NCBI GenBank assembly: GCA_013239625.1
Contig: MU053881.1
Span: 11,150,873 to 11,214,872 of the forward strand
Length of the DNA stretch: 64,000 nt
Origin: Lama guanicoe
Lineage: Eukaryota
Reading direction: 5' to 3'
Shown: positions 10,761 through 49,225 of the stretch, piece after piece
How positions within the stretch are numbered: the first letter of the stretch is position 1
How the letters are laid out: each line of letters begins with the position of its first letter
Notes under the pieces: generated by a model
What the model was told of the DNA's origin: nothing
Databases searched by the model: none
What the model saw: only the letters and a program-made list of their open reading frames with translations
Made by a program: the position numbers and the translations under genes

Positions 10761-11055
10761 GAAAAAAGCACTGGGAGCAGGAAAAGGGGGTGCTTGCTGA
10801 AAGTTATGGGTCCTACTCTGATGTTACTGATTCAGTTTCTCTGAGAGTGAGACCTGTTTTTTTTAGCACCATCTGCAGGTCTGATGATTCTCAACCATCT
10901 GTGGCATCCTGGCCATGCACTCTGTGATGGGCTGCTCCCTGGCCTGATGCTTCTGCTCCTCGACCAGCTGCCACACTTTTAAAGAGTGAGAATCTCTGGA
11001 GCAAGGTTGGAGAACTAGCACTTGGCCTCTCACTCATAAGGGCAATCTCAAAATA

Positions 11056-22243: not shown

Positions 22244-22389
22244 TTTTTTTTTTCTCTTTTTAAAATTTTTTGAGGGGGTGGGGAATTAGGTTTATTTATT
22301 TATTTATTTTAATGAAGATACTGGGGATTGAACCCAGGACCTCACGCATGCTAAGCTTGCAGTCTACCACTGAGCTACACTCTCCCTTC
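22244..22389 (-). mobile_element. tRNA-derived camelid SINE (vic-1-like)
   Basis: Reverse complement reads ggagagtgtagctcagtggtagactgcaagcttagcatgcgtgaggtcctgggttcaatcccc (A and B boxes); TSD AATGTTGATGATTC (22230-22243) / AATGTAGAGGATTC (22390-22403), 12/14 identical. Confidence 0.92.
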
Positions 22390-26808: not shown

Positions 26809-28353
26809 TTACTGAAGAAAAAGAAAGAGGCTGGAGGAATAACGCTCCCAGACTTCAGATAATACAATAGAACTACAGTCATCAAGACAGCATGGTATTG
26901 GTACAAAAACAGACATATAGATCAATGGAACAGAATAGAGAGCCCAGAAATGTAACTACAAACTTTTGGTCAACTAATCGTCAACAAAGGAGGAAAGAAT
27001 ATGCAATGGAATAAAGACAGTCTCTTCAGCAAATGGTGTTGGGAAAACTGGACAGCAGCATGTAAATCAATGAAGCTAGAACACTCCCTTACACCATACA
27101 CAAAAATAAACTCAAAATGCATCAAAGACTTAAACATAAGGCAAGATACAATAAACCTCCCAGAAGAAAATATAGGCAAAATATTATCTGACATACATCT
27201 CAAAAATGTTCTCCTAGAACAGTCTACCCAAGCAATAGAAATAAAGGCAAGAATAAACAAGTGGGACCTAATGAAACTTACAAGCTCTGCACAGCAAAGG
27301 AAACCATAAGTAAAACAAAAAGACAACCTACAGAATGGGAGAAAATTTTTGCAAATGAAACTGACAAAGGCTTGATCTCCAGAATATATAAGCAGCTCAT
27401 ATGACTCAATAAGAAAACAGCAAACAACCCAATCCAAAAATGGGCAGAAGACCTAAACAAGCAATTCTCTAAGGAAGAAATACAAATGATCAATAAGCAC
27501 ATGAAAAAATACTCATTATCACTCATTATCAGAGAAATGCAAATCAAAACTACAATGAGGTATCACCTCACACCAGTAAGAATGGCCATCATTCAAAAAT
27601 CCACAAATGAGAAATGCTGGAGAGGCTGGGGAGAAAAGGGAACCCTCCTACACTGCTGGTGGGAATGCAGTTTAGTGCGGCCACTGTGGAGAACAGTGTG
27701 GAGATTCCTCAAAAGACTAGGAATAGACTTACCGTATGACCCAGGAATCCCGCTCCTGGGCATATATCCAGAAGGAACCCTACTTCAGGATGACACATGT
27801 ACCCCAGTGTTCATAGCAGCACTATTTACAATAGCCAAAACATGGAAACAGCCTAAATGTCCATCAACGGATGACTAGATAAAGAAGAGGTGGTATATTT
27901 ATACAATGGAATACTATTCAGCCATAAAAACCAACAACATAACGCCATATGCAGCAACATGGATGCTCCTGGAGAATGTCATTCTGAGTGAAGTAAGCCA
28001 GAAAGAGGAAGAAAAATACCATGTGAGATCGCTTATATGTGGAATCTAAAACAAACAAACAAACAAAACATAAATATACAACAGAAACAGACTCATAAAC
28101 ATAGAATACAAACTTGTGGTTGCCAAGGGGGTGGAGGGTGGGAAGGGATAGACTGGGATTTCAAAATGTAGAACAGATAAACAAGATTATACTGTATAGC
28201 ACAAGCAAATATATACAAGATCTTATGGTAGCTCACAGAGAAAAAAATGTAACAATGAATATATACATGTTCATGTATAACTGAAAAATTGTGCTCTACT
28301 CTGGAATTTGACAAAACATGGTAAAATGATTATAAATCAATAAAAAATGTTAA
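26809..28353 (+). mobile_element. 5'-truncated young L1 (~1.5 kb): C-terminal ORF2, 3' UTR and short A tail
   Basis: ORF track gives L1 ORF2 peptides ([34 protein letters not shown]...[18 protein letters not shown]...[12 protein letters not shown]); TSD AAAACTTTACTGCTT (26794-26808) / AAAAATTAACTGCTT (28354-28368), 13/15 identical. Confidence 0.97.
26815..27990 (+). pseudogene. Disrupted L1 ORF2 C-terminus including the Cys-rich domain
   Basis: Split between ORFs 27001-27309 and 27486-27878 by frameshifts and stops; endonuclease and RT core absent. Confidence 0.9.
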
Positions 28354-28870: not shown

Positions 28871-31800
28871 TTAGGTTTTTTATAACACATTTAAAATACC
28901 TTGATGTTAAAAAAAAAGAAAAAGAAGAGGTAGATAACAACTGCATGTCTTAAGCTCAACATAAAGATTATAGATTCTACAGAGTGTGGAGATTTGAGTT
29001 TTTCAAGTCAAAATATTATACACTTGTTAAACATAAACTACCAATCCAAAATGTATGTGTATATTCACAAGGGAACTGGGACAGAATAGAAGAAGTCTAG
29101 GCAAGGAAAGGATATGTATACGTACTTCCTCGATACAAGGATGCAGTTTTCCGTGGCTTAGAGATTTTTTGAAGATAATACCTAAACCATTAAAATCTGT
29201 GTTTGCTCTTTACTTTGTTAGGGTTTTCCATACGACTGCAGCCTATACAAAGAATGAAAGACAGAAATCTGGGTCCCTAATGACAGAGCATATTTTGCTT
29301 TTATTGTCAGACATAACTTAGCCTTCTTAAAAATGAGTTGCTGCAAGAAAGTAATTGAGGGCCATAGTCAAAATTTCTTCTAAGGCTTAGAAGGCTCAGA
29401 AAATACGACCTCAAATCATCATCTTCAAAAAATCTAAATTTGTTAACAAATTTGTAATATTCAACCATATAATTCTTAGTTTGTCCCTCCTGATTTTGCT
29501 GCCTTTTAAGCAAGTCCATGACAGTTTTTGACAAATTTTAAGCTTTCACCTGGCATTCTGCAAAAGAACTTTTAAGTACCACAGGATGTGTGAAGGTTTT
29601 GTCATGAATAGCGCCGATGCCATGTTATATTGTGCTGATGGTCCACATACTGTGGCTGTTTTGAGTCAAGCCTGTAGCTCACTTGGGTATCATCTCCATG
29701 GTAACTTGTTTACAAAGGCTGAAATACAAGCTGAAAATTCAAGGTTAGCTTTTTCTTTGTTGCTGTTTTGATGTTTTTGGCAATCGAAATAACGTGGGTA
29801 TAAGACTTGATTTAAACAGCTTCATGGCAGGCTGAGTCAAAACAAAACTCCATACAAAATGTGCTTTCTTCATCTCCATTAAAAAGGAGAGAATTCAAAA
29901 TGATCTTTAATCAGAACCATCACTTATATCTCCCTTTCATATTCCAAAACAACAGTCCGCCTGCTGCACTTTGGAATCTCATCTTGGGAAATAGGTTTAA
30001 GGCTTCGTATTTTTTGAAGCAATGATTTTTTTGTATGCATATGTTCTGCCTTAGATGAAGAATTCAGTTTATTTTAAATCACCACTGTGTTGGGAGGAAG
30101 TGAGCAGTTTTAGTACCTATGCTAAAGCACTTCATCCTCCAAGTGGATGAGCCTTTTGAATTCTAAAAATTGACTGCATTTTTGATATTATGAAAAACAG
30201 TTACTACTCAAAATTACTCTTTCCCAGAAATAATTATAAAATGACTCTGATGATAACATTAGTTTAGTAGAATGTTTATTTTGATTATGGAAAATTTAAA
30301 TTTAGATTGTTTAAGAAGAACTGCTGTCTTCTGAAAGCAAGTTATAACCCAGAGTGATCTTAAATCTAGAGTATTTGATCCTTTGAATAAATTTCCACTA
30401 AAGAAAGTAGAAAAATAATGCTATATATCTTATCTGCTCTTTATGAATCTTCATAAGCATTTAAAGAATTCAATATAACCCCCAAAACAAGGCCAAGATG
30501 CCCACTACTACTTGTTCACTAGAATTTCCATCATACAGAATGTAACTGATATGGAAATATAATAATGTGCCTATTACCATAAAGGTGGTGCTTGTTGCAA
30601 AAATCAAAGACAGGCTTTAAGACAGAAAATTAAATTTGGAGTTGGCATTGTTCTAACAAGAGTAATAAAACGATGAGGCTTATGCTTGCTGAGTTTTTAG
30701 GAATTAGCTCACGAAGGTGACTAGATTCTTCTTGACCCAAATCCTCTTCCCTGCTCCTTTCAGAGCTCTTGAGATACAGATATAGAAATAGATATAGATA
30801 CAGCAACATTACCTACTATTATAATCATTGATTTACTTACTGGCCTCACCAATCACCAGTCATCACAGTGTCTGATGTAGGAAGACAGTCAATAGTATTT
30901 ATTGCATAAATACCTGATTTTGCAATAATCAATATAATTTCTAGGGCTTTGTCAGGAATGTTGCCTTTCCTACCATGATCTCTCTCATGATTTTGCTTTT
31001 CTTTTCTCAATGAAGATTTGTGGAACATTTTGCTTTCCTGATACCACATGGGAGAAAGGATAGACAGTTATTTGCCCAACACGTTCCAAAGCACGTAGAC
31101 TCAGACTTTCCTTTCAATTCCTTCACCCAAGCCCTTGCCTCATATGAGAACACTTTATTTTCCACTCAAACTTCGCTATGATTCTTCCTCTAAGCAGAGC
31201 TGAAAGAATGGGTTTCCCTCTGACAGTGACTCCTGAGCATTTCACTTGGATTTAGCCCTGTTCACTAAAACGTCTTCAGTAAAGACAGGAAGTAGGAATG
31301 GGAGCGGATGCTGAAATGAGAGTACCTGGAGGGATTTATTCTGACTTGGAATATTCTCTTCACCTGATTAGATTCTACCTTGATTAAAATATTTTTCAGT
31401 TCTCCTCTTAATGATGTTGATTTTTTTAAATGTAATTTTACTTATTATTGATTTTTATTTATTGCATTGCATCTTTGGTTTGCACAGCTTCTCAGTCTCA
31501 AGACACAGCTTCCCCCACACACTATCCATTTTTTTGTTTACTCTTACAACATTTAAACCATTAAACATACAACGTTTACTACTAGAAAAATATTGTAACT
31601 CAAGTTTCTGACTGTGAAATAACTTCATCAAATTATCTTTTGGGCAAGATTGAAGTAACCTAAAGATGACTTCAAGTTAAATGAAAATATGTGATTTTAT
31701 TGATTACTTCTCACGTGGCTACAACCAGAGACCAGTAAAATCCTAGAGTAGCACACAAGTGATTTTCATCCAAAGATTATGGGTTTAGTTCTAAAATAAA

Positions 31801-47128: not shown

Positions 47129-48322
47129 AAGGATGACAATGAAAAAAAAATCTAAAATGTCACAAACCACCTGAAAAAGTCAACTGATCAAAAAGCTGTC
47201 TCTCCTTTATAGGAGACTACATTTACACACATATTTATAGGCTATACATACAAGTGTTGATATGTCTTGCTTAACTGACTTAAAACCTTAGGTAATTTTG
47301 CCACACAGTAAAATTTTTTGCATGGTGAAAAGGAGAACTGTGACATAAAACCTAATCTACTAGATCTAATTCAATGTTTCTTCCTGGTGACAAGGGCATG
47401 TCTGGGCTGGATGGGTCAATATCTATGAATGTTCTCAAGTGACTATGCTTAGTAAGTGTCCCAGTTTACACTCAAATTTACATAACCCTGGATGTATTAT
47501 TTGGATTGCAATGGATTTCTTATAGGTAGAATCTTGATTACAATGTCCATATAAAAAATGCTCCAATACAGCTTATTTCATTACTGCTAACAAAACTGCA
47601 CAATTAAAGCATAGTGAATGTTGAAATTTCCACAATTTTATGCTTTTCAATAGCACCACAACAAAAATGCTCAGATAATAAAAGAGAATTTATGTAAAGT
47701 AACACATGAAACATTTGGTTATATTTGACTCCTTAATGTATTCCAAAGGCATCTATTGCCTCAGGGAGAGAGGGTATTTGTACAGAGGAAAAATAATAAC
47801 CCAGAGAAGAGCAAACAACAGGGAAATTCTACTTATGGCTGAGGATAATAATCAGATGATACCCCAATCATCTAAAAGAGAGATGACTTAAGGAAAAGAA
47901 ACATAATTGGTCAAGGTTAAATAGCAGTGTGTATCCAAGGGACACAAATGAGATATACATACTCAAAAAGACTACTAGAAGATTTAAAACAAGAAATGTA
48001 AGGGAGTCATCATAAAGGAAATACTGCTATTTGAAAGGAGTGATGAGATCAAGAACAGAATCAAGTCACTTTTTCTTAAAAGGTTTCAATAGGAAAGGAA
48101 AAATAACAGGCTAAAATGTAAAAGGAACATCTTCTAAAATATGTTAACTATGAAATGATATATGCATATTTAAGACGAGTAATGCCATTAGTCCTCAGAT
48201 TGATATTCATACTTTAAAGGGGTGCCAGAAAAATCACACATGGAAAACTGAAGGTAATATCTGTCAGGTGAAAAAAATGGCACACAATAGAGGTACACTT
48301 AGATGCTTGGGTGTAAGGAGCG

Positions 48323-48729
48323 TAATGACATGGATAGAAGGAAGGGTATAATAAAATGCATAAATGAAATGGCATAATGAGATGCATAATTGGACAAATG
48401 TAACGATATGCAAAGAAGGAAGATGTAATATACACATTTTTTAGGCGTGTAATGAGATGCATAAATAGAAAGGTGTAATGAGATGTGCATGTTTAAGTAA
48501 TGCAATGAGAAATATAGGTTATAATAACATACATGAAAGTAATTTAGTAATGAGATATACAAGGGAAAGGCTTTAATGAAATCCACAAATGGAGAATACG
48601 TAAAGATGCTGAAAGGAGATGTAATGAGATGCACATATTTGAAAGTTATAATGAGATGCTTTAATGGAAGTGTGCAATGAAATGTATATGTTTGAAAGGT
48701 GTAATAAGACACATTAAAAGGGAAGAATG
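48323..48729 (+). repeat. Degenerate ~26-bp tandem array (16 units) with a TAATGARAT core
   Basis: Unit starts at 48323, 48349, 48375, 48401, 48426, 48450, 48476, 48503, 48522, 48548, 48574, 48601, 48622, 48649, 48675, 48702; approximate consensus TAATGAGATGCATAAATGGAAAGGTG. Confidence 0.9.
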
Positions 48730-49014
48730 TAAAGCAATTCTCTCCTCCTATGGAGAATAATGCTTCCTGAAAGCTTTGAAGAGTCATCATCCTAAGGGAT
48801 TTCTGTATTTTTACTTCAGTATAAATTAGGATACCATCAGCAGCTTCAGCCATTACTACATCTAATAGGTTTTCCCCTGGGTCCATGTTATTTTTGGCTA
48901 TATGGCTGAAAACAATGCCCCATGCCTGGGGCCACATTCCAAGGACAATTTCGAGCTGATTGCTGATCTTTAGACTAGAACACAAGAAGAGGAAAAGAAT
49001 AAAGAAAGGCAGAA

Positions 49015-49225
49015 ATTAACAGCTACTGAGTCTTCATTTGACACTGGAGTACTGCCAGGAATATTTGTGTAATTAAATGTTTCAATAATCTTATAAGGCA
49101 GACGTTATTATCTGCTCTTGACAACTTAGAAAAGCGAGCTCAGAGGTCAAAGTGGTTGCTCCAGGTCATATGGCTGGTAACTGTTGGAGCCAGAACTTGA
49201 GAATAGAGCTGCTTAACTCTTAATT
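49015..49225 (-). mobile_element. MIR SINE
   Basis: taacagctactgag...caataatcttataaggcagacgttattatc...gagctcagaggtcaaagtggttgctccaggtcatatggctggtaa. Confidence 0.8.

What the first reader, a model, noticed from the sequence alone, without database searches (positions are those of the whole stretch)
48323..48729. Array of TAATGARAT (POU-type) motifs within a decayed 26-bp tandem repeat
Seen: 16 head-to-tail units. Exact TAATGARAT occurs 7 times on the same strand (48375, 48450, 48476, 48548, 48574, 48622, 48649), and near-matches fill the other registers (TAATGACAT, TAATAAAAT, TAACGATAT, CAATGAGAA, TAATAACAT, CAATGAAAT, TAATAAGAC). The first ~12 bp of each unit (TAATGAGATGCA) are better kept than the remaining ~14 bp, which differ in every unit. 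Several units also contain ATGCATAA(A/T)T. I do not recognise it as a TE or named satellite. Established: TAATGARAT is the element bound by Oct-1 (POU2F1) with HCF-1 and herpesviral VP16; TAATGAG resembles POU6F sites and ATGCATAAT resembles POU3/POU4 sites. Inference: an old minisatellite whose core was selectively retained as a homotypic POU-binding platform, possibly a host enhancer or factor sink responsive to alphaherpesvirus VP16. Tandem origin alone explains multiple copies; the uneven conservation is the signal that needs testing.
Basis: partly seen in the sequence, partly recalled or inferred. Interest (0 to 1): 0.75.

Follow-up and report, generated by a model that had tools for sequence, protein, structure and literature searches.

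The report
Conserved 16-unit non-coding motif array
A 400-base stretch built from sixteen old copies of a 26-base unit has changed far less than its neighbouring DNA in about a dozen related animal lineages, which points to a row of docking sites for one still unidentified regulatory protein, probably not the herpesvirus-type Oct-1/VP16 site first proposed.

Summary
The array is real: 16 units of about 26 bp, with 7 exact TAATGARAT at the stated positions. A chance open frame on the minus strand let me retrieve 17 clusters of collinear homologues from unnamed, presumably mammalian, assemblies. Across 13 lineages the array differs from the window at 139 of 1399 residues (10%), against 25% and 45% in the flanks. 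The units differ from each other by about 42%, so they diverged early and were then frozen, spacers included. Constraint repeats with the unit (P<1/400) and covers columns 2-17. The first T of TAAT is not constrained (8/130 versus 3/518). The selected motif is therefore not TAATGARAT, and a VP16-responsive role is unsupported. Best reading: an exapted minisatellite serving as a homotypic binding cluster for one factor with a footprint of about 16 bp, like the ZNF410 clusters at CHD4. An RNA-level platform is the main rival. One lineage (P0006) seems to have lost the constraint. All evidence is read through amino acids; the host gene is unknown.

The parts
48323..48728 (+). Array of 16 head-to-tail units of about 26 bp; conserved non-coding element
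48451..48466 (+). Example of the constrained footprint (columns 2-17 of unit 6); pattern about AATRANATNYAYA plus three A/T-rich bases, repeated in each regular unit
   Evidence: columns 2-6 3/518, 8-9 2.7/231, 12-17 6/675 against columns 18-end 29/939
48426..48449 (+). Unit 5, three bases shorter in this genome than in the homologues that span it
   Evidence: one extra residue at 48432 in P0034, P0012, P0013, P0016, P0049, P0050, P0051, P0075, P0054
48503..48521 (+). Short unit 8 (19 nt, starts with C); no visible change in any lineage
   Evidence: 0 changes in 112 visible lineage-sites
48600..48621 (+). Irregular unit 12 (22 nt)
48729..48975 (.). Right flank, collinear in the homologues, moderately diverged (154 of 618 residues differ)
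48069..48322 (.). Left flank, collinear, strongly diverged (35 of 84 and 39 of 84 residues differ in P0053 and P0075)
48299..49015 (-). 238-codon stop-free frame crossing the array; judged not to be a gene, used only as a handle to find homologues

Best explanation
An ancient 26-bp minisatellite was expanded to 16 units, its units drifted apart, and before the sampled lineages split it was recruited as a cis-regulatory element and frozen. It most likely works at the DNA level as a homotypic cluster: each unit offers one same-strand site of about 16 bp (columns 2-17, read mainly at A/T positions) to one sequence-specific factor, many copies binding cooperatively to open or silence chromatin for a distant gene, with unit-specific variants tuning affinity. 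Shown: array, collinear homologues, constraint on the whole array, its 26-bp periodicity, early divergence of units. Inferred: DNA rather than RNA level, a single factor, enhancer or silencer action. The factor is unidentified; a POU or other homeodomain protein using the ATGCATAAAT-like half is one candidate (about one in three), a multi-finger zinc-finger protein another.
For: Array 139/1399 residues differ against 154/618 and 54/119 in the flanks, 13 lineages; P0050 21/42 in the flank against 9/135 in the array. Constraint follows unit phase (0 of 400 phase randomisations) and survives dropping any one lineage. Units are 0.58 identical to each other, yet unit-specific bases are kept. Out-of-frame segments, which expose the third codon positions, also differ less than the flanks (24/161; p=0.006 and 2e-8). 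No RNA structure on either strand (z 0.11 and -0.43), no Rfam match, no convincing coding exon among 264 ORFs of 55 aa or more. Precedent: ZNF410 needs dense conserved clusters of 15 and 11 motifs with conserved spacing (10.1101/2020.08.31.274324 and 10.1101/2024.02.24.581901, passages).
Against: All cross-species evidence is back-inferred from predicted proteins, not DNA alignments; silent changes are mostly invisible and the search favours open frames. Organisms are unnamed and lineages were grouped by eye. Column groups were chosen after seeing the data (the phase test covers the choice of window position, not its width); columns 12-17 versus 18-end loses significance (p=0.10) without the three fastest lineages. 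P0006 shows no constraint (12/44 against 21/68 in its flank). All units lie on one strand, as expected from tandem origin but also from an RNA element. No binding, chromatin or expression data; no target gene found.
Confidence: 0.55

Rival explanations
1. RNA-level platform: the array lies in an intron or long non-coding RNA and offers repeated single-stranded sites to an RNA-binding protein. On the minus strand the most conserved columns read UCAUU, a NOVA-type element (motif recalled).
For: Columns 2-6 are the least changed and column 1 is free, which fits UCAUU better than TAAT; 11 TCATY on minus against at most 8 elsewhere; unstructured on both strands; splice-acceptor-like sequence lies near the array on both strands (by eye).
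Against: YCAY count (16) is not exceptional in this window (maximum 18 elsewhere); a 16-nt footprint is long for a KH-type protein; unit-specific variants lacking the C are kept; the minus-strand acceptor region is not conserved in P0049; no host transcript shown.
Confidence: 0.22
2. One reading: a platform of TAATGARAT elements for Oct-1, responsive to HCF-1/VP16, kept as a host enhancer or sink.
For: 7 exact copies here, and an eighth in the homologues at unit 15; column 7 tolerates G>A as R would; columns 8-9 are conserved. Brain POU factors also bind TAATGARAT (PMC7461839, passage).
Against: First T changes in 8 of 130 visible lineage-sites, including T>G, against 3 of 518 for columns 2-6; columns 12-17, outside the element, are as constrained as columns 2-9; units without TAATGARAT (8, 9) are among the best kept.
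Confidence: 0.07
3. The minus-strand frame is a real, repeat-derived protein-coding exon, and the low amino-acid change reflects coding constraint.
For: Longest ORF of the window; open across the array in 6 of 14 lineages counting the window; a borderline excess of silent changes when three fast lineages are dropped (11 of 19, expected share 0.36, p=0.054).
Against: Broken by a stop or shift inside the array in 8 of 14 lineages (some shifts may be assembly errors in base runs); no silent excess overall (16 of 35, p=0.22); only 9 stop triplets on that strand, so one open frame is unremarkable; constraint follows the 26-bp unit, not codons; no Pfam, PDB or Atlas support, recognition 1442; none of the homologues carries a name.
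Confidence: 0.05
4. A neutrally decayed minisatellite, or the internal repeat of an old transposable element, whose apparent conservation comes from low local mutation rate or from how the homologues were found.
For: Homologues were selected by similarity and open frames; no repeat library could be searched; P0006 is eroded.
Against: The first search was weighted to the flank yet its hits are best conserved in the array; a 2.5- to 4.5-fold drop in divergence at the array edges; periodic constraint; every homologue is collinear in unit-specific spacers, none looks like a second family member; no second cluster in the window.
Confidence: 0.06

Closest known systems
ZNF410 motif clusters at CHD4 (10.1101/2020.08.31.274324; 10.1101/2024.02.24.581901; passages read)
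   Same: Dense same-factor cluster of 11-15 long motifs, unique in the genome, with number and spacing conserved among mammals.
   Different: Those motifs are spread over up to 1.5 kb; here 16 sites sit at a strict 26-bp period in 406 bp. The motif differs: only 1 of 16 units is within 2 mismatches of CATCCCATAATA and the essential AA is a conserved TT here.
MORC3-repressed tandem-repeat enhancers, IFNB1-MRE (PMC13373173; abstract and section 13 read)
   Same: Tandem repeat that carries a homotypic cluster of transcription-factor motifs and acts as an enhancer.
   Different: Motifs are SPI, AP-1 or SP/KLF; the section read does not describe frozen, individually conserved units. MORC3 binding here is untested.
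Herpesviral TAATGARAT elements bound by Oct-1/HCF-1/VP16 (PMC3936734, PMC7461839; passages read)
   Same: Seven exact 9-mers in one orientation.
   Different: The first T of TAAT is unconstrained and the conserved footprint runs eight bases past GARAT.
Repeat-built RNA platforms such as Xist A-repeat, NORAD and CDR1as (recalled, not fetched)
   Same: Repeated conserved core with more variable spacer, one strand.
   Different: No transcript, hairpin or seed-match signature shown here.

Membership tests
Conserved non-coding element | Present at the orthologous place in other species | tested here: met
   17 clusters collinear with array and flanks; species unnamed
Conserved non-coding element | Changes more slowly than neighbouring DNA | tested here: met
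   10% against 25% and 45% of residues; 12 of 13 lineages fit or lack a flank to compare, P0006 does not
Conserved non-coding element | Not protein-coding | tested here: met
   frame broken in 8 of 14 lineages, no overall silent excess; one borderline subset p=0.054
Homotypic binding cluster (ZNF410/CHD4 kind) | Many copies of one motif, with conserved number and spacing | tested here: met
Homotypic binding cluster (ZNF410/CHD4 kind) | Occupied by one factor in vivo and needed for a target gene | not testable with these tools
   no ChIP, ATAC or deletion data
ZNF410 target | CATCCCATAATA motif with the AA dinucleotide | tested here: not met
   1 of 16 units at 2 mismatches
TAATGARAT / VP16 response element | Exact TAATGARAT present | tested here: met
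TAATGARAT / VP16 response element | TAAT core is the constrained part and the footprint ends at GARAT | tested here: not met
TAATGARAT / VP16 response element | Oct-1/HCF-1/VP16 complex forms and activates | not testable with these tools
   needs EMSA and reporter
microRNA sponge (miR-143 site, recalled) | Seed-match columns invariant | tested here: not met
   5 sites on minus, but columns 7 and 10 of the match are the loosest in the core
NOVA-type YCAY cluster | YCAY density above background, in a transcript near a regulated exon | tested here: inconclusive
   16 YCAY against up to 18 elsewhere; 11 TCATY against up to 8; no exon identified
Interior of a known transposable element or named satellite | Match to a Dfam/Repbase consensus; many dispersed copies | not testable with these tools
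   no repeat library or whole genome; no second cluster in the window
Structured RNA family | Rfam match or stable fold | tested here: not met

The most novel reading that the evidence does not exclude
The array is the single dedicated target of an orphan transcription factor with a 16-bp footprint: sixteen sites at 2.5 helical turns form a cooperative switch or dosage sensor for one gene, each unit's variant fixed since the early placental radiation, and lost in at least one lineage (P0006). It would be a second ZNF410-CHD4-like one-factor-one-locus circuit, with a visible origin from a minisatellite.
Probability: 0.15. Interest if true: 0.85.

Novelty: new variant of a known kind. Interest (0 to 1): 0.58.

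Why it matters
Sixteen natural replicates of one site, each with its own conserved variants, give a ready-made mutational scan of an unknown binding motif, so the partner can be found with one pull-down. The element also shows directly how a minisatellite can become a frozen regulatory element, and one lineage that has lost the constraint offers a natural knockout. If it is only one more mammalian enhancer with a motif cluster, it remains a tidy but ordinary conserved element.

Tried and rejected
A 160-nt minus-strand exon at 48815-48974, suggested by acceptor and donor look-alikes: no protein relative; its best hits were chance matches to repetitive proteins plus P0006; the acceptor region is not conserved in P0049. 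miR-143 sponge, ZNF410 site, RNA hairpins and a higher-order repeat (no lag stands out) were rejected as given above. Six scans for homologous DNA found nothing: metagenome contigs, viral contigs, prokaryote genomes. One search listed 24 runs: 14 DNA-type or untyped runs hold 0.98-1.00 of the words, 2 RNA runs hold 0.59, 4 RNA runs hold 0.09-0.11; no reads were laid, so these show neither expression nor conservation. A likeness of the unit to part of the MIR SINE is recalled only; (family D14, 76% over 25 nt) is too weak to test it. Literature searches (listings only) showed no description of this element, with six exact 12-14-mers, returned 0 papers. Rows left out of the per-lineage counts: P0034 (near-identical to the window); P0010, P0011, P0015, P0052, P0053, P0055 and other cluster members (close to a lineage already counted); P0054; P0006 and P0054 (mostly out of frame).

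Full report
Observation. The array is as described. Seven exact TAATGARAT lie on the plus strand at the stated positions, within 16 units starting at 48323 to 48702. A profile built from 14 regular units scores them at 5.4-23 bits when each is left out, and no 400-nt stretch elsewhere in the window holds more than 2 hits. Between units, the first 12 columns are 0.83 identical and the rest 0.63, more uneven than uniform decay allows (0 of 4000 at each of three rates). The spacers still share ancestry (0.59 against 0.46 shuffled). Mean pairwise identity of units is 0.58, with no higher-order period.

Setting. The window is mammalian: CpG observed/expected 0.18, a LINE-1 ORF2 end near 27 kb, a tRNA-derived SINE. 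The LINE-1 wording looks camelid to me (recalled, not tested). Pfam scans of all 264 stop-free stretches of 55 aa or more found no family above its cut-off; the best was a GADD45GIP1-like fragment. The array thus lies in a gene desert or a long intron. No whole genome was held, so the host gene is unknown.

Homologues. The minus strand happens to be stop-free across the array (238 codons). Gene callers have translated the matching frame in public assemblies, and searches with it returned 10 clusters and 7 more, all unnamed, from Logan or ENA. Each is collinear with the window, including unit-specific spacers, and most include a flank. I read them as orthologues from other mammals; this is inference, since no organism is given. 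P0054 matches only units 1-7 and has unrelated sequence before that.

Whole-array constraint. With a frameshift-aware alignment of one sequence for each of 13 lineages (grouped by eye), residues differ from the window at 154 of 618 positions in the right flank, 139 of 1399 in the array and 54 of 119 in the left flank. P0050 differs at 21 of 42 flank and 9 of 135 array residues; P0009 at 18 of 70 and 5 of 95; P0075 at 9 of 41, 12 of 135 and 40 of 85. Taken singly against the majority residue, only 3 of 12 testable rows reach p<0.05, though all point the same way. Back-inferred base changes per visible lineage-site are 0.096 in the flank, 0.035 in the spacers and 0.023 in columns 1-12; core against spacer gives p=0.08. 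Units that differ from each other by about 42% thus differ between lineages by a few percent: they diverged first and were then frozen. The exception is P0006, whose array is as diverged as its flank (12 of 44 against 21 of 68, p=0.83; against the other arrays p=0.0007) with three frameshifts. P0014, P0051, P0053 and P0054 are also faster than the rest.

Footprint. Distinct changes per visible lineage-site, 11 lineages plus the window: column 1, 8/130; columns 2-6, 3/518; column 7, 3/137; columns 8-9, 2.7/231; column 10, 6/122; column 11, 2.3/132; columns 12-17, 6/675; columns 18 to end, 29/939. Within columns 2-17, A and T change at 0.005-0.007 and G and C at 0.03-0.04; outside, A, G and T all change at about 0.035. 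Random phase shifts of the units never reach the observed contrast (0 of 400). Column 1 against columns 2-6 holds when any lineage is dropped (p at most 0.011) and without the three fastest (p=0.007); columns 12-17 against the spacer end falls to p=0.10 in that last test. Column groups were chosen after seeing the data.

What this means for TAATGARAT. In the VP16 complex Oct-1 reads TAAT and VP16 reads GARAT (PMC3936734, passage), and the variant elements quoted for other alphaherpesviruses keep TAAT (PMC7461839, passage). Here the first T is free, with changes to C, G and A, while six bases beyond the element are as constrained as the element. The G of the ATGC that a POU-specific domain reads (recalled) is loose too. 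The 9-mer is therefore best seen as a by-product of a longer motif, about AATRANATNYAYA followed by A/T-rich bases. A POU factor in a non-canonical mode is not excluded.

Not a protein, not a structured RNA. The long frame is broken within the array in 8 of 14 lineages counting the window, although the search favours open frames; some shifts fall in base runs and may be assembly errors. Out-of-frame segments differ at 24 of 161 residues, below both flanks but above the in-frame figure. Silent changes are not in excess overall (16 of 35, expected share 0.36, p=0.22), with a borderline 11 of 19 (p=0.054) when three fast lineages are dropped. Neither strand folds better than shuffles, and Rfam has no match.

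Mechanism. A periodic, 16-bp, A/T-read footprint repeated 16 times and fixed in number, spacing and variant is what a cooperative homotypic cluster looks like. The best-studied case is ZNF410, which occupies only two conserved clusters of 15 and 11 motifs at CHD4 and activates that one gene (passages), with spacing conserved in human, mouse, pig and dog (passages). This array is not a ZNF410 site. Tandem repeats that act as motif-cluster enhancers are also known from MORC3-repressed elements (abstract and one section). I give the DNA-level reading 0.55. An RNA-level platform (0.22) fits the free column 1 and the UCAUU reading of columns 2-6, but YCAY density is not exceptional and no transcript is shown. 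PMC9976917 (passages) and PMC13466046 (abstract) were seen and add nothing decisive. No supplementary files were consulted; motif-cluster tables in the supplements of the ZNF410, MORC3 and Motif-Cluster papers could list this locus.

Novelty. Eight literature searches, seen as listings only, and six answered look-ups in this scan's notes showed no description of this element. The library lacks most subscription journals, and the element may well be catalogued anonymously as a conserved element or candidate enhancer. It works like a homotypic cluster; membership awaits binding data. I rate it a new variant of a known kind, interest 0.58.

Noticed in passing
P0006 against window 48597-48930: In this lineage the array has decayed to flank level with three frameshifts: a possible lineage-specific loss of function.
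   Followed up: partly
P0054 against window 48335-48486: Matches units 1-7 only, preceded by unrelated sequence: an insertion, deletion or chimeric contig.
   Followed up: no
window 47947-47959 and 48154-48166 (+): Two isolated copies of the footprint pattern upstream, same strand; the second looks altered in P0053 and P0075.
   Followed up: partly
window 48800-48819 (+) and 48975-49010 (-): Splice-acceptor-like pyrimidine tracts on both strands beside the array; the plus-strand one seems better kept in the homologues, the minus-strand one is not kept in P0049.
   Followed up: partly
window 10866-11033 (-): Fragment resembling GADD45GIP1 (PF10147, E 6e-6, below cut-off) abutting a LINE-1 3' end; probably a processed pseudogene piece.
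   Followed up: no
window 26830-28350 (+): Young 5'-truncated LINE-1 with nearly intact ORF2 end; older LINE-1 pieces at about 36.1-38.3 kb and 51.3-55.6 kb (by eye).
   Followed up: no
window 22313-22384 (-): Rfam tRNA hit with an A-rich tail, most likely a tRNA-derived SINE.
   Followed up: no
window 29450-29830: Unique-looking stretch with minus-strand acceptor and donor look-alikes but stops in all three frames; possible non-coding exon or conserved element (by eye).
   Followed up: no
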